From Spizellomyces punctatus DAOM BR117 (Eukaryota): DNA of 64,000 bases. Location of the stretch: the NCBI GenBank assembly GCA_000182565.2, contig KQ257450.1; one strand, 5' to 3'. Under the pieces are notes generated by a model. It had not been told where the DNA came from. It worked only from the letters and a program-made list of their open reading frames with translations, and did no database searches. Every line of letters starts with the position of its first letter. Position 1 is the stretch's first letter. The position numbers were made by a program, and so were the translations under genes. Below are positions 24,284 through 60,800 of this stretch, one piece after another.

Positions 24284-29483
<5,200 letters not shown>

Positions 29484-30460: not shown

Positions 30461-31539
30461 ATGCGATACACCTTTATCTACGCTCTTCTTTTGCTTTGCC
30501 TCGTTTTCTCTGTCACTGCGCAGAGGCAGCAGGCCGGAAAGCGATCCAATAATGGAAACAAGCAAAACAATGGCAACAATGGTAATAACGGCAACAACGG
30601 CAATACCGGCAGCAACGGTAACAACGGCACCACTGCCAACACTGGCAACCAGGCGGGCGTCGGCGGGGCCACTAGTGGTGGTGACATCAACCGCAATGTG
30701 GGGCCTTTCCCGGAAACCCAATTTTGCAAGGACACTGGCCTGACGCCCTCGGATGGTACTCAGATCAGGACAGGCGCCTGTTCGTCGACTCCAATGGGTG
30801 CCATCCCCGCCGTCGAAAAGATGGTGCGTTTGCAATGTCGCCAATTTCCATTAGTTTTTTGTAGTCTCACAGAGTGTCTTTAAAGGTGTCGAGCATCATC
30901 ATTGAGCCCGAGAACGGTGCAAGGATCGACGCCAGCAAGGATTTGACCATTACCACCGACTACCGAAACTTGGACACCGGTTTTTTCTCTGGTAGGCTGC
31001 GCAACCAGAAGATTTTAAAAATTCGTGCCATGTATACTTATAACATTTTCACAGACCCGCAAACTCAATACTACATTGTCCCCCAGACTCTGAGCGCCCA
31101 AGGCATCATTCAGGGCCACTCCCACATTACAATTCAAGAACTCAAGTCAACGCGATCTGCTCCAGACCCACAAGCTTTTGCCTTTTTCAAAGGTCTCAAT
31201 GACCGTGCCGCTGATGGTCGCACTCTCTCTGTCACCGTTCCCGGAGGAACATTCAAGACCAATGGCCTCTACCGTATCTGCTCCCTTAGCAGCTCGGATG
31301 CCCACCAGCCGGTTATCATGCCTGTGGCGCAGCGTGGCGCCCAGGACGATTGCATTCGTATCAACGTGGAAAACGCTGGTACTGGGAAGCAACAAGGAAA
31401 CAACCGTGACAACAGAAACCAAGGTGGCAACAATGGGCAAGGAAACAACAATGGCGGAAACAAGAGGCAGGCCAGATCAAACATCTTTGGTCGTCACGCG
31501 TTAACCGCGGAGCGTCGCATGGCAAGATTGCACGTCTAG
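30461..31539 (+). CDS. Secreted protein with Asn/Gly-rich termini and a Cys-containing fungal core (3 exons)
   Basis: Signal peptide MRYTFIYALLLLCLVFSVTA; (NNG)n tracts; core DGTQIRTGACSSTPMGAIP...GHSHITIQ...FFKGLND...PVAQRGAQDDCIR. Confidence 0.8.
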
Positions 31540-32162
31540 ATACGTTCCGTCAACCCAAACGCACTCGCGATTCAGATGTTGACATCAAACGCATGCACCG
31601 AACACATTTCATAATCCACTTTGTTGTTCTCTGCTTCGGACCACACATACTATCATCAGATAGAGCTTTTAGTGTCCATCCTCCTTGCTTGTACTTTTTA
31701 CTTTTGTAGTGGAATTTAGCTTAGTTTGGTTGTTGGTTGGTTTTATTACTTCTTGTTCTTGCTTTATGCTTTAGTCTCCCAAAATGTGCATAGTGTGAAT
31801 ATGTTGCCAAGATCTGTCTCGTAAAAGTTTGTATGCTCAGCAATAATCTGAGCTTTTGATTTAGTTTGCACGGCAGCTATGTCCTGTGTTAATCCTCCCA
31901 TCCTTTCTGGACCACAACCGAATTATGCTCTGCCAATTGGTCACACTGGGATTTTGCGGCTTGCACAAGAGTTTAAAATAGTAACTACCTTCTTACCACC
32001 ACTTTTGTTAAAATCTTGAGTTTGTTTGGGTGACATGGGACGCAAATGCAAACACTAGAAAAGAATTTGGAAATCTTGTATTTGTATTTAACTATTATTG
32101 TGTGCTTTGTCAAAGACTCTTTGCATGTGAACGTCGTTCCGCTTTGTAGAACAAGCTTAATA

Positions 32163-32235
32163 TAGTGCGGAGCCGATGGGTATTGGCACTAGCACCCGCA
32201 CCAGGGATTGAACCGGCGACAACCAGTTCGGAAAA
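32163..32235 (-). ncRNA. Fanzor omegaRNA scaffold (guide continues into flank about 32148-32162)
   Basis: Minus strand TTTTCCGAACTGGTTGTCGCCGGTTCAATCCCTGGTGCGGGTGCTAGTGCCAATACCCATCGGCTCCGCACTA just 3' of the Fanzor stop; stems GAACTGG/CCGGTTC and GTGCGG/CCGCAC; resembles the SpuFz1 omegaRNA as I recall it; conserved in two other elements here. Confidence 0.88.
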
Positions 32236-32250
32236 GGTAATCTAACTAAT

Positions 32251-34128
32251 CTACGCTACGGCTGGAACACCCCTGCTGAACACTTTTGGTCTACCGTGTC
32301 CATCTAACATTGATTGCACGATCATCAGCATGTTGCAGGTGCTCAGCGTGTCCCTGTTCCAGTAGCGCATCGTCCAGGCTTGCTGACAGTTAGGGTTGGT
32401 ACAACCCAGCAATCCATGGACTTTTTCAATCTTGCCTTCGCGACGGCGCCAAGGTCTTGAATGAGGTCGTGTTTTGAAGCCTTTTTCAAGGAAGTCAGCG
32501 GATGAGGCCAAACAGTGAGGGCAGACAGATGAGGTCTTGTACTCGTCGAGAAGGAAGCAGTTGATCCTGTTGCGCTTAAAGAGGGTGCGCCAGCCTTTCG
32601 TCTTTGATGAGGTCTGAAATCTCGCAGTTCGACCGGCATCGCTCCAATCTCCCATCACAATGGTAAAGTTCCCAAACTTGTTGTGCATGTTGGATATGAG
32701 GTCTGATTCGCTCTTCTGACGGTTTATGAATGCGTGCCATTTCCATCGCGTGTGGGCAGGGTGGGAGTAGAATTCCTTGCGACGATCCGAATCTGCGCGG
32801 CGAACAAGAAGGTAGCGAGTAAAGTCCATGAGGTTCATCGTCTTGTGGCTTGGGATACGTGATTCTATGAGGTCAATTCCCGCTTCCTTCTTCATCTGCT
32901 GTCGTTCCTTTCGCTGCCGACGGCTGCCTGTCTCCATGGCTCGCTGGTTTGCGGTGTAACGGAACGTTGTACCATTGCTGTCTTGGCAGTAGAGAATATC
33001 GCGCTTGTTTGGGTCAATGACGACAATGTTTTCTGCTGCCCGACAAGCAGGTAAGTTTTTCTCCATGTATTGCACTTTAACTTCGTCCTCTAAACTCTTT
33101 GCTGACTTTCTCGCTCCCTTTCCATACTTGTCTGCTTCTGGGTGCTTTAGGTATACAGACACCGAGGTTCCATCTGTACTGATCGAGCCTTCAAACTGCA
33201 TACCGCGGCGAGACCGAAAAGCCTTGTTCCGCAGGTTGCACACGCGCAACCATAAATCGACCTTTTCGACAGTTTCCGCTTCTCGTCGTGTGATGCAAAG
33301 GATATGCTGGTACAGGATGACGGTGTCGATGCGAATATGGGACTGCATCAGAGACCGACGAAGAGGTATTGCGCTGAACCGACGGAAGCCATGTCGTTCA
33401 TACAGCACAGAGAGTTTGCAGTAAGCAGGAAAGAAAGCGAGAGGGTCAACAGCAACCGAATATGCGAGCGGCTGGTCAGAAAGGGGAATGAAGGACCACA
33501 TCTCTTCTAGAAGCTCACTCTCCTCAGCAGTCAAGTCATCCAGTGACTCGGGCATGACATCAAAAAGAAAAATTGACTTCAAGTAGCGAAGACGAGCAAA
33601 GAAAGCTTTCCGCGCATCGCTTTTCAGTGGCAGTCGCCCCCGTCCCTTCACGTTGAGCCGCAGATTGATATACCGGAGCAGCATCTGCATGAAATGCTCT
33701 TGAATGTTGACTTTCAGGTTTGTCATCATACTCGCTGTCAGGTAATTGATTGACTGCTGCTCGCCTCGTAGATTTGGGTGAATGAAGCCGACGATTTGGC
33801 AGTACCGACGAATGTATGGCAACAAGCATCCGCGTAGTGCCTTCTTTGCTTCCTTTCTTGGATGCCAAGCCTCCCCCTTGTTGAGAAGATAGAGAATCGC
33901 TTCGATTGTATCTTCATTTACCGTGGGAAAGGTTGGTGCATATAGGATGTAGAATTTGAGAGCGTGGGAAGCATGGTCAGCGAGTTGATGGATGATGGCG
34001 ATGTAATCTAGAAGACGCTGCCGGTAGGTCTCATTAGGCAAGAAAGCTTTTGCAAAGGAAGTCTTGTTGCAGGTATGTAAGGTGGGTTTGTCGAGTTTTT
34101 CAAGCTTTTGCTTCTTTTTTGGTGGCAT
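32251..34128 (-). CDS. Fz1: Fanzor1 RNA-guided DNA endonuclease (TnpB/Cas12 family), 625 aa from MPPKKKQKL
   Basis: Intronless ORF; NLS-like PPKKKQK; RuvC-I VVIDPN, RuvC-II LDEYKTS, Zn finger CPHC...CTNPNC, RuvC-III WNRD; TDGTSVSV motif; closely resembles SpuFz1 from memory; TATATAA at 34181-34187 lies between the upstream ATG (34215) and 34128. Confidence 0.95.
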   Translation of the reverse strand: MPPKKKQKLEKLDKPTLHTCNKTSFAKAFLPNETYRQRLLDYIAIIHQLADHASHALKFYILYAPTFPTVNEDTIEAILYLLNKGEAWHPRKEAKKALRGCLLPYIRRYCQIVGFIHPNLRGEQQSINYLTASMMTNLKVNIQEHFMQMLLRYINLRLNVKGRGRLPLKSDARKAFFARLRYLKSIFLFDVMPESLDDLTAEESELLEEMWSFIPLSDQPLAYSVAVDPLAFFPAYCKLSVLYERHGFRRFSAIPLRRSLMQSHIRIDTVILYQHILCITRREAETVEKVDLWLRVCNLRNKAFRSRRGMQFEGSISTDGTSVSVYLKHPEADKYGKGARKSAKSLEDEVKVQYMEKNLPACRAAENIVVIDPNKRDILYCQDSNGTTFRYTANQRAMETGSRRQRKERQQMKKEAGIDLIESRIPSHKTMNLMDFTRYLLVRRADSDRRKEFYSHPAHTRWKWHAFINRQKSESDLISNMHNKFGNFTIVMGDWSDAGRTARFQTSSKTKGWRTLFKRNRINCFLLDEYKTSSVCPHCLASSADFLEKGFKTRPHSRPWRRREGKIEKVHGLLGCTNPNCQQAWTMRYWNRDTLSTCNMLMIVQSMLDGHGRPKVFSRGVPAVA

Positions 34129-34180
34129 TGATGATATCTGTGGGAAAAGATGAAAGCCTGGGAAAATGGGCGACGACAAC

Positions 34181-34187
34181 TTATATA
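34181..34187 (-). promoter_or_regulatory. Putative TATA box of Fanzor gene
   Basis: TATATAA about 53 nt upstream of the ATG at 34128. Confidence 0.55.
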
Positions 34188-34619
34188 GGATTTTTTGGAT
34201 CAAACCATAGTTCATGAGTCTAAATCGAGTAAAATTATGATTAAATTGGTTGGAATCTATGTACTAGTGCCAATACCAATCGGCTCCGCACTATGGAAGC
34301 TGTCACAAGATTACGTCAGCTTCAATCTCCGCTGTTCGCCACGGTTCATGCTCCGCGTACTAAAAATAACAACAATATTATGACTATCTTTCGCAGAGCC
34401 CCACGGCTCTGTCAAACGACTAATAGTTTGGCATACTTATGTGGCTTCAAATTACCGGAAGAACTTCGAAACTTCTGTCCGCAAGAGCCTTCCGAGCTTA
34501 TTCATTCTAACAGTGGCTGGTCTCTGCTCCATGAGCAACTTTTGATTCTTGTTCTGAGCCCAGCAATATTTAGGGCGAACGTCTGAGTCTGTCTGTCGTT
34601 AGTGATCCAAAGAGTCTGC

Positions 34620-35904
34620 ATGATCATGTTCAAGTCATCACCGGAAGAACCCCCCGTAACGCTGAAAGCCGTCCTAAGCGGGCAAACCTGCCCGCCTATT
34701 AGTTATACTGACTTTGCGCAGTATATGAATCGAGAGGGGCAGGGACAATACATCGAATTTTATGAGGCTGTTCTTGGGTATGTTCTGCTGTACCGACAGT
34801 GGTCGGCCGGACAGATTGAGCGGGAACACCAGGCTCGAGTGGCGGAGAGAGCAAGGAAGGAAAAGGAGAACAGAGAGGCTAGAGAACGGGAACGGGAGAA
34901 GGAGAAAGGGAAGGACACGGAGTGTCTCAGCGAAGAAGGCAGATTGTGTGCTTTGACGGAAAGTGACGTGGAGAACGCAAGCGGTGAAAAGCCCAGCTCG
35001 TCAAATACGTTGCCAGCGGCTCAAAGTAATATCGCTTTGGAGCAATCAGATTGGGGTACCTATATGAATGTTATTCAAGGTCGACGCTCAACTTCAGCTG
35101 GAACCGACCAAACCGCCGTCCGTGGTCCGTTCCCTTCAAAGACCGAGAAGAAAGAGAGCATCAAGCTAGAGAACATGCCGATCGACTCCTTACACGAAGC
35201 TCTCGACACAAAAGCTCGACTAATCTTTGACACCTTTTTACGACAAGATAGCCCCAGTGTTGTTCCTATCCCAGAGGAACTCCGGACGTTCCTTCAATCC
35301 CACATTTGCGTACCGCCTCCCACGTACCAGCCCCACTCGCCCTCTCTTCTTCACCCAACCTTCAACCACGTTATAACGCAACTATCCCAAACGCACTTTC
35401 CAAAATTCCTTCACCAGGCAACACGTTACAATCTCTCATCTGGCGGCATCGCCCGTCGCATCCTCCTCTTTTGTACCTCCGCATTTATCACTGTCGCATC
35501 CCTGCTCATTAACATCTATTTGAAGCATTCACCGTATCTGCGGCTGCTCATGGCTATACCGATCTATTTTATGATTATTGGCGTCTGGCAGGCAAAAGCT
35601 AAATTTTGTGTCTTGTTTGCAAGACTCGGAAGGAGGGAAGATGCTGGCGGAGACATGTTTAGCTGGATGGCTGATAATTGTGAGTACAGTTTGTCGCTTG
35701 GCTTGGTTTGCTGATGAAAAGGCTTTTGACGATGTTTATTTCCCAGTACCCGTCGTCGACCCGGTAGTTCTTCGTATGCAACGGCGAAGAGCTCGCAAGG
35801 TGTCCACACTTACACAATTGGCAGCCATTTTATGCTCGGTAATCTTGTTGGTGGCTGTACCATCTCAGATTCATCCAGAGTATCGCTGGGTGTGGAGTCG
35901 ATGA
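34620..35904 (+). CDS. RGS-domain membrane protein (Rax1-like), 2 exons
   Basis: TLKAVLSGQTCPPISYTDFAQYM..EFY, IFDTFLRQDSP, HFPKFL..ATRYNL then hydrophobic helices and KFCVLFA; intron GTGAGT..CAG near 35680-35746. Confidence 0.7.
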
Positions 35905-46073: not shown

Positions 46074-46146
46074 TAGTGTAGAGGTGACAGAAAATGGCAC
46101 TAGCTACTACACCAGGGAATAAACCGGCGACAACCGGTTTGGAAAA
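46074..46146 (-). ncRNA. omegaRNA scaffold variant, copy 1
   Basis: TTTTCCAAACCGGTTGTCGCCGGTTTATTCCCTGGTGTAGTAGCTAGTGCCATTTTCTGTCACCTCTACACTA; stems AAACCGG/CCGGTTT and GTGTAG/CTACAC. Confidence 0.8.
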
Positions 46147-46198
46147 GCTAACTAAGCTACTACTAGGCAATTATACACGCAATACGTAACGGTTGGTT

Positions 46199-46551
46199 CT
46201 AACCGGATAATTGCCCTCCACCACACGCGGTCCCTACTAGGCCTTGATCCAGAACTCTTGATGGCATTGAAGCCAGACTCTTGCATCCAGGAGCGAATCG
46301 ACTGGGCAGCGTCACAAGCCAGAGGATGTTCAGTGACAAGGCTTGGAGACTAGAGAAAAAAACTGCATGTCAGAAGATGACCCGATGACAAGAAATGCAA
46401 GAAATGCCATCGATACATACCAACCAAGCTCAACTAATGTGGCAGCATAATAGTAGGTTTTGTTATCAGATCCGATTGGTTGCCACTGGTTCTGGTCACG
46501 GTTGCTGTCGGGCGGTCGAGGTCCTCGACACCACCACATCGGCGTTCTCAT
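46199..46551 (-). CDS. Putative spliced 93-aa cargo ORF, copy 1 (exons 46551-46421, 46349-46199)
   Basis: accATG, intron GTATGT..CTGAC..TTTCTCTAG (71 nt), frame kept in both copies; coding status unproven. Confidence 0.45.
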
Positions 46552-46669
46552 GGTTGACCGAGTCGCGATGAGGTTGCAATGTGGGTCGCAATGAGAGTTG
46601 TGCAGATGCAGATGCTTTGAGAGTCGAGGATGGGTAAAGAGGAAAGAGGGAAGAGACAGAAGGCTCCCC

Positions 46670-46676
46670 TTTTATA
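46670..46676 (-). promoter_or_regulatory. Putative TATA box in element copy 1
   Basis: TATAAAA followed by a pyrimidine-rich tract, conserved in copy 2 (54322-54328). Confidence 0.55.
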
Positions 46677-47064
46677 GACCTTTGGCATGCGCCTCACCGC
46701 AGTTTAAAAAAAAAACATTAGCATGCCACACCAATCTGAGCGATAGATGGGGGTTCTCATTATGCGATATGATTAACCGGATTCATCCGGATAATAATGA
46801 GTCCTAGTGCCATTTTCAATCGCCTCCACACTATGTGATGTGCTTATGTAATCCAGCCCATCCAATTTCAATTCTGCCTTTTACGACACGCATGGTTTGC
46901 TTTTGTGGTGAACTCACTACGACTTTATCCGCCTCTCCAATTCCCAACGTGATCAGCTGTGTGGGGAGTCAAACCACATGCTAAAAGGGCCATAGCAACC
47001 AAAGTGTGTGCAGTGTGTGTGTGTGTCGATACCGTTCTTTTTTTTCCTTTAAAATGGAGAGATC

Positions 47065-53751: not shown

Positions 53752-53824
53752 TAGTGTAGAGGTGACAGGAACTGGCACTAGCTACTACACCAGGGAATAA
53801 ACCGGCGACAACAGGTTCGGAAAA
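53752..53824 (-). ncRNA. omegaRNA scaffold variant, copy 2
   Basis: TTTTCCGAACCTGTTGTCGCCGGTTTATTCCCTGGTGTAGTAGCTAGTGCCAGTTCCTGTCACCTCTACACTA. Confidence 0.78.
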
Positions 53825-54483
53825 GCTAACTAAGCTACTACTAGGCAATTATACACGCAATACGTAACGGTTGGTTCTAACCGGATAATTGCCCACCACC
53901 ACACGCGGTCCCTACTAGGCCTTGATCTGGAACTCTTGATGGCATTGAAGCCCGACTCTTGCATCCAGGAGCGAATCGACTGGGCAGCGTCACAAGCCAG
54001 AGGATGTTCAGTGACAAGACTTGGAGACTATACATGCATGTTAGTGACAGAATAACATGAAAAGAGATGATGCCATTGGTACATACCAACCAAGCTCAAC
54101 TAATGTGGCAGCATAATAGTAGTTTTTGTTATCGGATCCGATTGGTTGCCACTGGTTCTGATCACTGTTGCTGTCGGGCGGTCGAGGTCCTCGACACCAC
54201 CACATCGGCGTTCTCATGGTTGACCGAGTCGCGATGAGGTTGTGTGGGTCGCAATGAGCGTTGCACAGATGCTTGCGAGTCGAGGGATAAAGAGGAAACA
54301 GGGAAGAGGGAGCAGGTCCCCTTTTATAGACCTTTGGCATGCGCCTCACTGCAGTTTAAAAAAAAAACATTAGCATGCCACACCAATCTGAGCGATAGAT
54401 GGGGGTTCTGATTATGCGATATGATTAACCGGATTAATCCGGATAATAATGAGTCCTAGTGCCATTTTCAATCACCTCCACAC
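53754..54483 (-). mobile_element. Nuclease-less Fanzor-related TIR element, copy 2 (730 bp; ghost-type)
   Basis: TIRs at 53754-53781 and 54456-54483, TA flanks at 53752-53 and 54484-85, CATA at the left junction; colinear with 46076-46831. Confidence 0.92.
53877..54217 (-). CDS. Putative spliced 93-aa cargo ORF, copy 2 (exons 54217-54087, 54027-53877)
   Basis: accATG, intron GTATGT..CACTAAC..TATAG (59 nt); exon lengths 131 and 151 identical to copy 1. Confidence 0.45.
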
Positions 54484-54870
54484 TATGTATGGATGGTTGT
54501 TGGCATTCAGGCCATGTATATTTCTTACTCTGTACAAATACAAAAATATCGCAAAGAGAGTGCAAAATGGGATAGGCATACTAAACATAACCCGGACGAC
54601 CCCGCCAGATATTCTTGTTTTTTTTTGCGTTTTCTTCGCCTTATGTCCAAAGGCCAACACATTCATCTCATATGTAAAAAAGTACGACATCTACCTCCGA
54701 CAATGGCCTATGTTACATCCCAGAATCATATGCACGATGATCGTCGTCTAAACTCATAACCGCATGTGATGTTTTTGCTACAGATGTTCATCATACAGCA
54801 TATTGAGCAAATCAGATACAAATATATACAGAACCCCGGAATCCTCACCTCACACCTTTCCAATTGAAGT

Positions 54871-57800: not shown

Positions 57801-60800
57801 GTGTCAGACCCCTCAAGTATGAGTTTTCAACAAAACCTCGACTTTCGGGCGTATGATCGTCCTTTGTAAAGTGCGGCAATGAACGATACTTGAACCCAAA
57901 TGGTATACGCTTTCCTTCAACGTTTTGCTGTCCGACACAAGCTGACATTTGCGAAATGTTGATGTACGATCCTTTGGATCCGGCAACCACCATCTGCTTC
58001 ACATTATTGTATTCTTTGAGAGAGGCCTGAGCGCTCTTACCCGCGTTGTCACGGGCACGATTGAGCTCCTTGTTGACTAAGGACTCGAAACTCTCACGGA
58101 TCGTCATACCAGGCAAACCTTCAAGTTTATCAGATTGAGCTTTCTCAATGATTTTGGTCACCTCCTTCTTCGCATTCGAGATAGTTGAGGTAATCTGATC
58201 AGATGTCGGCCGATCTGCGATGGTGTCACCAATACCAATAGAGAATCCGTTTTGCAGTAGCCAATGGTTAACAACCAATTGAGTCCCATTGAAAAACGCC
58301 TTTGCCGCCTCCGGTCCATGCTCATTCATTGTGACGTGAATGATACCATTCGCAGAACTACCCACCGTCTTCTTACAAAGAATGCCGGTGAGCAACTCCC
58401 CGTTTTCAATCAGGACCTTACAATCACTCGAGCTTCCGTCATCTTTATCAGTTTGCTCATCAAATGCAGAGTGGTATCCAGTGACGTTGATTTTAGGTGG
58501 GATGACCAAACTCATGATTTGCTTTCCAGTCCACAAAGGTACCGGCTTAAGAATGGCCGGCTGAGGAACTGTTCCATCCCAATCCGGTACCCACATCAAA
58601 AGGTTCATGACAAAGTCCCGCCGTAGAAAGGTATCGCGCTTTGTGAATTTACGGATACCACAAAGCGTATCCTGAACGATTCCCATAACAGGTGCGTTTT
58701 TTTGCGGTGATACAATTTGCTTTGGTACCATGCAAAGCTCCATCAGCTCGGCTTTTGTCTCATACGACTGCGGCACGTGTAAGTTCATCTCATCTCCATC
58801 GAAATCGGCGTTATACGGACTTGTTACCGACAGATTCAGACGGAAGGTGGAGTAAGGCATAACCTTTACTCTGTGGCCCATCATACTCATTTTGTGTAGT
58901 GACGGCTGACGGTTGAAAATGACAATATCGTTATCCATCAAATGCCGTTCCACGCGATAGCCGTTTTGAAGATGAATATCTCCACCACGGCGATTATACC
59001 GTAGGTCGATTCGTTGGCCATCATCTTTGATGACGTATTTGGCCCCCCCATGTTCTAAAGGTCCCTTTCGTACCATCTCCTGCAAACGGTGAATATTGTA
59101 CGGCGTGACTGTCTCGGGGAAAGTCAAGTTGCGGGCAATGCTCCGGGGTACCCCAACCTCGTCAATCGAAAGATTGGGGTCACCAGTGATGACAGTACGA
59201 GCTGAGAAATCTACACGTTTCCCCATCAAGTTTCCACGTAAACGACCTTCCTTTCCTTTTAGACGAGCTCGAATGGATTTCAACTAAGACACAAACATGA
59301 GTCAACCACAAAACTGCTCTCGTCGAATGACAAGACGATAATGATCTTACCGGTCGCCCAGACTTTTGTAAAGACGGAGGAAGCCCGGCGATGTCATTAT
59401 CCATGTAAGTGGCGATGTGATACTGCAGTAGCTTTTCAAACTCGTTTATGACATGTGCTGGTGATCCTTCCGTCTCGTGCTTCCGCAGAAAGCTATTTGC
59501 CAGGACGATATCACGCAATTTATGTGTCAAATCATCCTGATTTGTCGCCACACCATCCATGCTGACAGCCGGTCGAACTGCCATCGGTGGAACAGGAAGT
59601 ACAGTGATAATCATCCACTCTGGTCGAGCCCAGTCTGGATTTAACCCCAAGCTCATACAATCATCCTCGCTGATCTTCTGGAAAAGCTGATGGACCTTTT
59701 CCGCCGTCAACGGTTCAGTTTTCGGTTCTTGGCCGCTTTCCTCCTGCATAGAAAGGACACAAGATTAATTATGTTGGGAAAAATATGTGAACAAAGCATG
59801 TCCCTTACCTCATCCTTGGTGGCTTTCCAGTACGTAGCTAGCTGCAACGGCCCCTCTTTTTTGAAAATGGGCTGCCTTCCGCCGCAGCCTCCATGAGTGG
59901 GCTTTGACTTGTAGGGATCCTCCATGTCCATCTAGTTGTCAGGTATACTAGGTGAGTTGTCCCAGACAAATGGCAGATCAATGTCTAGCTTTACCATGTC
60001 ATCATCGTCTGGAGCAGTATCGCTGCCCTCGCACACCATTTTGGTCTTGCAAATCTCCCACACCGCATGAAATCGCCGCTTTTTGTCTTTAATGATCCTT
60101 GCCTGGCGAAACCGCTCATTGCTGTGACCGTGGGNNNNNNNNNNNNNNNNNNNNNNNNNNNNNNNNNNNNNNNNNNNNNNNNNNNNNNNNNNNNNNNNNN
60201 NNNNNNNNNNNNNNNNNNNNNNNNNNNNNNNNNNGAGACTATATTGCAGATTCAGTACCTTTAGCTTGCCGCAATGAAAGCACACGCATTCCAAGATCTT
60301 TTTGATCTTGCTGATGAAGCCTACGCGAAGAACATCAATAGAGAGTCACAAACAGTATGGGCATTGCGACATCCAGGCACAGAGCAGGTTCATGATTTGT
60401 TTTCCCATTGGTGACCTCCATTGACACTCTTGCCATCAACTATCAAGCAAGGCTTACCAGCGTGATACACGGGCTTGGCAAGATCAATGTGGCCAAAGTG
60501 ACCGGGACAATCTGTCATGTTCTCGCCACAGGTAGCACATCTGAAGTTCCTATCAGTGGTTCCTAGCCGTCTATCCAGTAGACCGCCAGTTTTGGGGTTG
60601 TTTTCACTTTCATAAAACTCGGGATGCTCCACTTTGACGACAGACATGGCTTTCTACATTTGTCAATAAAGAGAGGAAGAATCAAAGAGGTTGAGGAAAG
60701 ATATTCACATCGGAAATGGCAACCACAAAGTGCAAAAAGTATTGAAAGAAGGTGATAGAGACGGATATATAGCTCCACCAAGAATTCTGAACGAAAACAC

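What the first reader, a model, noticed from the sequence alone, without database searches (positions are those of the whole stretch)
32148..34295. Complete eukaryotic RNA-guided nuclease locus: Fanzor + omegaRNA + TIRs + readable TAM and guide
Seen in the sequence: an intact 625-aa ORF with RuvC D(IDPN)/E(DEYK)/D(NRD) and a C4 zinc finger, between 28-bp TIRs with a TA duplication. A structured 73-nt scaffold sits 15 nt after the stop and overlaps the right TIR. Established knowledge: Fanzors are TnpB-derived OMEGA nucleases whose guide is the flank 3' of the right end, and SpuFz1 uses a CATA TAM. Inference: the guide here is about TATTAAGCTTGTTCT, and the excised allele reads CATA|TATTAAGCTTGTTCT, so the element would cut its own empty site (homing or retention). 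From memory the protein is a diverged paralog of SpuFz1 rather than identical to it.
Basis: partly seen in the sequence, partly recalled or inferred. Interest (0 to 1): 0.88.

Follow-up and report, generated by a model that had tools for sequence, protein, structure and literature searches.

The report
Known Fanzor1 transposon copy, Spizellomyces
This is an intact copy of the SPu-1 transposon of the soil fungus Spizellomyces punctatus, carrying a Fanzor RNA-guided DNA-cutting enzyme and its guide RNA, and this very copy is already listed with its RNA in the 2023 paper that discovered Fanzor activity.

Summary
Window 32163-34293 (minus strand) is a 2,131-bp element. It has 28-nt terminal inverted repeats with TA on each side, one 625-aa ORF and a structured RNA gene at its 3' end.

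- **Protein:** it matches the solved SpuFz1 structure (8GKH) at E = 0 and is 84% identical to SpuFz1. The RuvC triad, the zinc finger, 6 of 6 TAM-reading residues and 16 of 16 listed RNA/heteroduplex contact residues are conserved.
- **Novelty:** none. The locus is gene SPPG_08836 of S. punctatus DAOM BR117. It appears in Saito et al. 2023 (Nature, PMC10432273) as row ID 19 of the supplementary table "Fz orthologs". That row gives an 88-nt omegaRNA, obtained by heterologous expression in yeast, that is letter-identical to window 32236->32149. The locus is also in Supplementary Data 1. The element family (SPu-1) was the prototype Fanzor element of Bao and Jurka 2013.
- **Guide and TAM:** The logic that the empty site carries TAM plus target is also in print (2026 review).
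- **Still open:** no TAM is recorded for this paralog ("N.A."), native expression of this copy's omegaRNA is not shown, and homing or retention has never been shown for any Fanzor.

Verdict: real, correctly read, already known.

The parts
32163..34293 (-). Whole SPu-1 / Fanzor1 element including the terminal TA at each end (2,131 bp)
   Evidence: Inverted repeats. The same ends are annotated in Saito 2023 Supplementary Data 1 as NW_015971537:988248-988277 and 990349-990378, which correspond to window 32163-32192 and 34264-34293.
34264..34293 (-). Left-end 30-nt inverted repeat (TA plus 28-nt core)
34292..34295 (-). CATA on the minus strand: the conserved flank CA (34295-34294) plus the terminal TA. 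It equals the TAM measured for SpuFz1 and two other S. punctatus paralogs.
   Evidence: Sequence. CA lies upstream of the left repeat in 3 of 3 elements of this window. The CATA TAM is printed for IDs 14, 16 and 20 and the conserved CA is stated.
32251..34128 (-). Fanzor1 ORF, 625 aa plus stop (gene SPPG_08836, XP_016612696.1). It starts with a lysine-rich N-terminus, MPPKKKQKL.
32149..32236 (-). 88-nt omegaRNA, as obtained by heterologous expression in yeast in Saito 2023
   Evidence: Letter-identical to row ID 19, NW_015971537 988234-988321 minus. Fold.
32163..32236 (-). omegaRNA scaffold, 74 nt. Stem 1 covers RNA positions 8-27 and stem 2 covers 34-74. The 3' arm of stem 2 is the right inverted repeat, including its TA.
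   Evidence: Three base pairs are kept by changes on both sides between this RNA and the two ghost RNAs. The boundary is placed by homology to the 75-nt SpuFz1 scaffold, whose guide starts at U76.
32149..32162 (-). Guide, 14 nt (TATTAAGCTTGTTC), equal to the flanking DNA just outside the right end
   Evidence: It is unpaired in the fold.
32163..32192 (-). Right-end 30-nt inverted repeat. At the occupied site, ACTA (32166-32163) precedes the guide's target in place of CATA.

Best explanation
The locus is one of the 19 full-length SPu-1 (Fanzor1) elements of Spizellomyces punctatus DAOM BR117, gene SPPG_08836. It is a non-autonomous DNA transposon bounded by inverted repeats and TA.

**Shown by homology:** its only gene encodes an omegaRNA-guided double-strand DNA endonuclease of the TnpB/Cas12 RuvC type.

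**Shown for this locus in yeast by Saito et al.:** the 3' end of the element gives an 88-nt omegaRNA. Its 74-nt scaffold includes the right inverted repeat, and its last 14 nt are copied from the flanking DNA and serve as the guide.

**Inferred:** the protein-RNA complex should cut DNA that carries the TAM CATA followed by the guide's target. That is exactly the sequence of the empty insertion site (flank CA, target TA, right flank). The occupied site has ACTA there and should be spared. A cut in an empty or excised copy, repaired from a filled copy, would restore the element (restorative homing, as shown for bacterial TnpB). The transposase that moves the element must act in trans and is unidentified.
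For: - **Identity with the published locus.** The 625-aa protein is in NCBI/UniRef on a contig of 2,242,449 bp. A 21-nt scaffold-guide junction and an 18-aa peptide of the window each occur in the supplements of PMC10432273. Row ID 19 prints the same RNA and protein. Supplementary Data 1 prints the same DNA with SPPG_08836 and both ends.
- **Family.** SpuFz1 8GKH at E = 0. 56 relatives at E <= 0.001, of which 17 rows are named S. punctatus DAOM BR117 at 76-89% identity.
- **Functional residues.** 4 of 4 catalytic or metal residues, 6 of 6 TAM readers and 16 of 16 listed RNA/heteroduplex contacts are conserved. E529 lies with six residues between it and the first zinc-finger Cys, the arrangement described for Fanzors.
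- **RNA.** Two stems, z = -3.37. 92.8% of pair cells are paired against 32-52% when partners are slid, and 3 pairs change on both sides, in 3 sequences only.
- **TAM logic.** CATA at the left end and ACTA at the right end. CA sits upstream of the left repeat in 3 of 3 elements of the window. Mutating any TAM base abolished SpuFz1 cleavage. The review PMC13565253 states that the 5' TSD is read as part of the TAM and the 3' TSD lies in the scaffold.
Against: - The TAM column for this paralog reads 'N.A.', so its own cleavage activity and TAM are not on record in what I saw.
- RNA reads do not show this copy's omegaRNA. 1072 of 1109 laid reads of run X9 fit only partly, so most come from other family members. 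No pile-up of molecule starts or ends was listed. Bins 32603-33787 in the middle of the ORF had depth 0-1.2, with about 6% of the run read.
- No transposase lies inside the element, and Saito et al. found none within any Spu-1 repeats. Excision, and hence an empty site to cut, has never been observed.
- Saito et al. state that the biological role of Fanzors remains unknown.
- The local Pfam copy gives no hit for this protein, nor for SpuFz1 itself, so that negative result says nothing.
Confidence: 0.9

Rival explanations
1. The nuclease does not serve its own element at its own empty site. It works in trans: with omegaRNAs from the many protein-less ghost elements, or in aid of other transposons, or in some host function.
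For: Saito et al. raise this in their Discussion and report 134 ghost loci against 42 Fz loci. Two ghost elements with omegaRNA-like 3' ends and their own guides lie in this same window, at 46074-46833 and 53752-54485. Ghost omegaRNAs supported SpuFz1 editing in human cells.
Against: The ghosts also carry CA upstream of the left repeat and a flank-derived guide. They fit the same empty-site logic, merely borrowing the protein. This rival therefore adds to the homing reading more than it excludes it.
Confidence: 0.3
2. This copy is an intact-looking but inactive or silent relic: the ORF is preserved by youth rather than by selection, and there is no active RNP in the fungus.
For: TAM is 'N.A.' for this paralog. 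Depth in the central ORF bins was 0-1.2 in the RNA run laid. Bao and Jurka found only nine intact ORFs among 17 full-length copies.
Against: The frame is open over 625 aa. All 26 checked functional residues are conserved. The two repeats differ at 1 of 28 core positions. The table gives an omegaRNA for this row obtained 'by heterologous expression in S. cerevisiae'. Only about 6% of one run was read, so low depth is weak evidence.
Confidence: 0.1
3. It is not a Fanzor locus at all: a chance ORF between chance repeats.
For: None, beyond the empty Pfam scan.
Against: E = 0 to the solved SpuFz1 structure. The repeat core is found twice against 0 expected. The locus is identical to the published one. 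SpuFz1 itself also gets no Pfam hit in this copy of the library.
Confidence: 0

Closest known systems
SpuFz1 (SPPG_07727, KNC96900.1, 638 aa; PDB 8GKH and 9CEU-9CEZ), row ID 16 of the Saito 2023 table
   Same: Same genome and same element family. 84% identical protein with the same catalytic, TAM-reading and RNA-contact residues. Same omegaRNA architecture and nearly the same scaffold. Same 30-nt repeats with CA upstream.
   Different: 13 residues shorter, through small gaps in the alignment. The scaffold is one nucleotide shorter in stem 1, and the guide differs. It carries Arg at the position of SpuFz1 C310, Val at D300, and lacks E498; these are three of the five sites where engineered basic residues raised SpuFz1 activity. 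TAM and cleavage were measured for SpuFz1 and are 'N.A.' here.
SPu-1 element and SPu-1-1p, the prototype Fanzor1 (Bao and Jurka 2013, PMC3627910)
   Same: [quoted passage not shown] This locus is a copy of that family.
   Different: The paper describes a consensus protein of 633 aa and 33-bp TIRs. This copy has 625 aa and a 34-nt repeat at 94%. The 2013 paper did not know of the RNA or the nuclease activity.
Ghost Spu-1 elements (Saito 2023)
   Same: Same ends, same CA upstream, and an omegaRNA with two stems and a flank-derived guide. Two lie in this window.
   Different: The ghosts have no Fz gene and are 734-760 bp here. Their repeats and stem 2 differ at several positions, partly through changes on both sides of a pair.
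TnpB of IS200/IS605 (for example ISDra2): RNA-guided homing or retention
   Same: RuvC nuclease with a zinc finger. The guide RNA is made from the element's right end and reads into the flank. The TAM sits at the left junction, so the empty site is the target (and established knowledge of TnpB).
   Different: The eukaryotic host, the inverted repeats with TA in place of ssDNA hairpin ends, and the absence of a TnpA in cis. The catalytic Glu is moved next to the zinc finger. The omegaRNA has no pseudoknot. Homing has been shown for TnpB but not for any Fanzor.

Membership tests
Fanzor1 (eukaryotic TnpB-like omegaRNA-guided nuclease) | Significant sequence similarity to experimentally characterised Fanzor1 proteins | tested here: met
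   SpuFz1 at E = 0 and 1207 bits, PpFz1 at 4.3e-45, GtFz1 at 5.2e-10. 84% identity to SPPG_07727.
Fanzor1 (eukaryotic TnpB-like omegaRNA-guided nuclease) | Split RuvC triad D/E/D, with the Glu just upstream of the zinc finger | tested here: met
   D372, E529 and D593 align with D383, E541 and D606. Six residues lie between E529 and C536. The feature is as described.
Fanzor1 (eukaryotic TnpB-like omegaRNA-guided nuclease) | CxxC...CxxxxC zinc finger in the NUC/TNB domain | tested here: met
   C536, C539, C576 and C581, all aligned with Cys in SpuFz1.
Fanzor1 (eukaryotic TnpB-like omegaRNA-guided nuclease) | Structured omegaRNA at the 3' end of the locus that runs 14-15 nt into variable flanking DNA | tested here: met
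   Identical to the published 88-nt RNA of row ID 19. The fold gives z = -3.37 with the guide unpaired.
Fanzor1 (eukaryotic TnpB-like omegaRNA-guided nuclease) | Guide- and TAM-dependent dsDNA cleavage by this protein | not testable with these tools
   The TAM column reads 'N.A.' for this paralog. Activity is inferred from 26 of 26 conserved functional residues.
Fanzor1 (eukaryotic TnpB-like omegaRNA-guided nuclease) | Pfam family hit (PF26935 or OrfB_Zn_ribbon PF07282) | tested here: inconclusive
   0 families at E <= 1. SpuFz1 itself also gets 0 families in this copy. The relatives carry a precomputed PF26935.1.
SPu-1 transposon family of S. punctatus | About 2.1-kb element with 30-nt inverted repeats, terminal TA and a conserved CA upstream of the left end | tested here: met
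   2,131 bp. Repeats. CA-TA. The locus is listed among 'Loci with Fz'.
SPu-1 transposon family of S. punctatus | Native expression of this copy's omegaRNA in the fungus | tested here: inconclusive
   RNA reads cover the right end at about 40-77x, but 1072 of 1109 reads fit only partly, so this is signal from the whole family. Saito et al. report native omegaRNA from four loci. I could not see which four, because figures are not held.
Restorative-homing OMEGA element (works like TnpB of IS605) | Empty site equals TAM plus guide target; the occupied site lacks the TAM | tested here: met
   CA+TA followed by TATTAAGCTTGTTC in the deduced empty site, and ACTA at the occupied right junction.
Restorative-homing OMEGA element (works like TnpB of IS605) | Excision by a transposase, and repair of the cut empty site from a filled copy | not testable with these tools
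   There is no transposase in the element, and none was found within Spu-1 repeats by Saito et al.. No genome or second strain is held.

The most novel reading that the evidence does not exclude
SPu-1 and its ghost derivatives may be kept in the S. punctatus genome by Fanzor-driven restorative homing. CATA (empty site) against ACTA (occupied site) would be the self/non-self switch, with ghosts borrowing the protein in trans.

This paralog naturally carries Arg at the site of the engineered C310R change and lacks the acidic residues at two further activity-raising sites. It might therefore be a more active natural nuclease than the SpuFz1 chosen for engineering.

Neither point is excluded by my evidence. 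The first is already proposed in print. The second I did not find in the passages I read.
Probability: 0.3. Interest if true: 0.45.

Novelty: already known. Interest (0 to 1): 0.1.

Why it matters
Fanzor is the first RNA-guided DNA nuclease family shown in eukaryotes, and SpuFz1 is being engineered as a compact genome editor. This locus adds nothing to that story, because it is one of the copies the discoverers already catalogued, with its omegaRNA.

Its value for the scan is as a positive control. A reader without tools recovered the ORF, catalytic motifs, repeats, RNA, guide and TAM of a real, published system to within one or two bases.

The open biological question is whether Fanzors drive homing or retention of their transposons in eukaryotes. 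This window does not make that more testable than the published data already do.

Tried and rejected
- **Whole-genome search.** No genome is held for this window, so I could not count copies, search for empty sites, search for other CATA+guide targets, or look for a trans transposase. I rely on the paper's counts.
- **Pfam scan.** 0 families. This is uninformative, because SpuFz1 itself also gives 0.
- **Sequencing runs.**
  - 11 runs were listed and 4 were laid.
  - X9 (RNA, raw reads): 1109 reads laid, of which 1072 fit only partly. This is family-level signal at both ends. It gives no locus-specific omegaRNA, and no start or end pile-ups were listed.
  - X11: 0 contigs laid.
  - X3 (kind unknown): short contigs cover 28 of 30 bins, some locus-specific pieces with 0 differences. 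No claim is made because the library type is unknown.
  - X1 (root metatranscriptome): 4 small contigs at 97-100%. I name no habitat from this.
- **Strand of the RNA.** In X9, first mates lie on + over 33867-34261 and on - over 32208-32286. The two ends therefore have opposite polarity, and without the library protocol I cannot say which is sense.
- **Accession from memory.** 'KQ257450', typed, found nothing.
- **Literature search for the locus tag or protein accession.** 0 papers. The locus appears only in supplementary files.
- **Earlier findings of this scan.** Nothing to show.
- **Ghost elements.** I did not verify that the two ghost elements of this window are among the 134 in Supplementary Data 2. 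The GenBank text is broken into 10-letter blocks and cannot be string-searched.
- **'N.A.' versus 'X'.** No legend for these entries in the TAM column was in the sheet.
Full report
**1. What is in the sequence**

On the minus strand an open frame runs from the ATG at 34128 to a TAG at 32253-32251 and gives 625 aa starting MPPKKKQKL. A further in-frame ATG at 34215 would give 654 aa. The 625-aa form is the one held in public protein collections and annotated as the CDS.

The frame is bracketed by an inverted repeat. The arms lie at 32162-32195 and 34261-34294, 34 nt and 94% complementary. The 28-nt core (32165-32192 and 34264-34291) differs at one position and occurs exactly twice in the 64-kb window, against 0 expected in 100 shuffles. 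Each core is flanked outward by TA. Counted with the TAs, the element is 32163-34293, 2,131 bp. Left of it on the minus strand stands CA, so the junction reads CATA. Right of it the flank reads TATTAAGCTTGTTC.

**2. What the protein is**

phmmer against all PDB chains gives three hits:
- the MBP fusion of S. punctatus Fanzor (8GKH, 9CEU-9CEZ) at E = 0 and 1207 bits over residues 2-625;
- Parasitella parasitica Fanzor1 at 4.3e-45;
- Guillardia theta Fanzor1 at 5.2e-10.

The large protein search returned 56 proteins at E <= 0.001 (of 8000 candidates scored). 17 rows are named S. punctatus DAOM BR117 at 76-89% identity. Other named rows are Gaertneriomyces (1), Fimicolochytrium (4) and Powellomyces (1), and the rest are unnamed metagenome proteins.

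P0005 (SPPG_07727, 638 aa) is SpuFz1 itself: its sequence and accession appear as such in the paper's tables. The window's protein shares 538 identical residues with it over 640 aligned columns, 84%.

I mapped the residues that the Nature paper names (passages) onto the window's protein:
- Catalytic and metal residues D383, N385, E541 and D606 become D372, N374, E529 and D593 (4 of 4 kept).
- TAM readers R96, Q129, Q130, N133, R291 and Y345 are all kept (6 of 6).
- 16 of 16 listed omegaRNA or heteroduplex contacts are kept.
- The four zinc-finger cysteines are C536, C539, C576 and C581.

The local Pfam library gave no family for this protein, and none for SpuFz1 either. That negative result carries no weight.

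**3. The locus is already published**

An 18-aa peptide and a 21-nt scaffold-guide junction copied from the window both occur in the supplements of Saito et al. 2023, Nature (PMC10432273).

In the sheet "Fz orthologs" (supplement 4, read whole), row ID 19 reads: Fanzor1, Spizellomyces punctatus ATCC 48900, NW_015971537, 988234-988321 minus.
- Its column [quoted passage not shown] holds an 88-nt sequence identical, letter by letter, to window 32236->32149.
- Its protein is the same 625-aa protein. The cell is cut at 400 characters, and the full translation is.
- Its TAM column reads "N.A.", whereas IDs 14, 16 and 20 read CATA.

Supplementary Data 1 (supplement 5, part 3 of 83) holds the same DNA. 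It is annotated with gene SPPG_08836 / XP_016612696.1, an Fz match at 988339-990171, and two 30-nt "end" features at 988248-988277 and 990349-990378. These correspond to window 32163-32192 and 34264-34293.

The main text (section 7 read whole) reports:
- 42 Fz loci, 19 of them full-length, and 134 protein-less "ghost" loci;
- 30-nt repeats with a conserved CA upstream of the left one;
- a 75-nt scaffold plus a 14-15-nt guide;
- native small RNAs of 88-90 nt from four loci.

The element family, SPu-1, was the very first Fanzor element described: about 2,100 bp, TIRs, putative TA duplications and 17 full-length copies (Bao and Jurka 2013, PMC3627910, passages). A full-text search for the locus tag or protein accession found 0 papers, so the locus is named only in supplements.

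**4. The RNA**

The 88-nt RNA folds into two stems separated by a linker, with the last 14 nt unpaired. The energy is -29.7 kcal/mol, z = -3.37, and 0 of 200 shuffles fold as well. This matches the paper's "two stems and a linker".

The numbering of SpuFz1's RNA (U76, C77, U78, A81 and G83 named as guide-side nucleotides) fits row ID 16. It places the scaffold-guide boundary just after the terminal TA of the right repeat. In this locus stem 1 is one nucleotide shorter, so the scaffold is 74 nt (32236-32163) and the guide is 32162-32149. The RNA starts 14 nt after the stop codon.

The two ghost elements in the window gave a small independent check. Aligned with this RNA, 92.8% of pair cells are standard pairs against 32-52% when partners are slid. 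Three pairs are kept through changes on both sides. With only three sequences this is supportive, not strong: 33 of 500 shuffles reach the observed values.

**5. How it most likely works**

- **Shown by homology:** the protein is an omegaRNA-guided dsDNA endonuclease with a CATA TAM, as for SpuFz1.
- **Shown for this locus by others:** the RNA exists when the locus is expressed in yeast.
- **Inferred:** if TA is the target-site duplication, the site before insertion (or after clean excision) reads ...CA-TA-TATTAAGCTTGTTC..., which is TAM plus target. In the occupied locus the four bases before the target are ACTA. Saito et al. found that mutating any TAM base abolished cleavage.

The element's RNP would therefore cut empty copies of its own site and spare itself, which is the arrangement that drives retention of IS605 by TnpB. 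A 2026 review (PMC13565253, passages) states the same logic for Fanzors: the 5' TSD is read as part of the TAM and the 3' TSD lies in the scaffold. It calls the process transposon restorative homing. Saito et al. (Discussion read whole) consider it possible. They stress that the role is unknown, that no transposase lies within Spu-1 repeats, and that Fz may act in trans, for example with ghost guides.

**6. Evidence against, and limits**

- No TAM or cleavage is recorded for this paralog.
- My one read-laying run does not show this copy's RNA.
  - In RNA run X9, 1109 reads were laid at >= 97% likeness, and 1072 of them fit only partly. Loose ends cluster at the element's borders, as expected for reads from the many other copies.
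  - Depth is high at both ends (about 40-230 summed over both directions) and 0-1.2 across 32603-33787.
  - No start or end pile-ups were listed, and about 6% of the run was read.
- No genome is held. Empty alleles, other targets of the guide and a trans transposase could not be sought.

**7. Surroundings**

The element lies between gene SPPG_00373 and an ORF with an RGS domain.
- Part of SPPG_00373 is the ORF at 30874-31539.
- The RGS-domain ORF lies at 34620-35714 (+), with RGS at E = 1.7e-9. It starts about 330 bp from the left end and diverges from the Fz gene.

Two ghost Spu-1 elements lie at 46074-46833 and 53752-54485, both on the minus strand. They are 92% identical to each other over 768 nt.

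**8. Verdict**

The finding is an already known, already catalogued locus. Interest is low. What remains open (the activity of this paralog, native expression, homing) is open for the whole family and is already recognised in print.

Noticed in passing
window 46074-46833 (-) and 53752-54485 (-): Two protein-less 'ghost' Spu-1 elements of 760 and 734 bp, 92% identical to each other over 768 nt. Each has CA upstream of the left repeat and an omegaRNA-like 3' end that folds into the same two stems. Their flank-derived guides are CACAACATGAACAA and GCAAAGAACACGCC. They are presumably among the 134 ghost loci of Saito 2023, which I did not verify.
   Followed up: partly
window 32251-34128 (-), residues V290, R300 and the gap after G486: At three of the five sites where engineered basic residues raised SpuFz1 activity, this natural paralog differs. 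It has Arg at the C310 site (the same change as in SpuFz1-v2), Val at D300, and E498 deleted. D487 and T513 are unchanged.
   Followed up: no
window 32129-32600 and 33867-34340: In RNA run X9, reads pile up at both ends of the element with opposite first-mate direction. First mates lie on + over 33867-34261 and on - over 32208-32286. This is as if transcription ran symmetrically inward or outward at the two repeats. The signal is family-wide and the library protocol is unknown.
   Followed up: no
window 34620-35714 (+) and 26628-27230 (-): Neighbouring ORFs carry an RGS domain (E = 1.7e-9) and an SMC hinge domain (E = 2.9e-20). The element's left end lies about 330 bp upstream of the RGS-domain ORF.
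   Followed up: no
window 60135-60234: A run of 100 N, an assembly gap.
   Followed up: no
protein P0038: A 466-aa relative, 37% identical, is labelled 'MAG: Bacteroidota bacterium, partial' on a 3,277-nt contig. All other named relatives are chytrid fungi. It is probably a eukaryotic contig binned into a bacterial MAG, but a true bacterial relative was not excluded.
   Followed up: no
run X1 on window 32450-32614 and 33055-33309: A root metatranscriptome holds four short contigs that are 97-100% like this ORF, one with a 79-nt skip replaced by 6 other letters. The share is small and no habitat claim is made.
   Followed up: no
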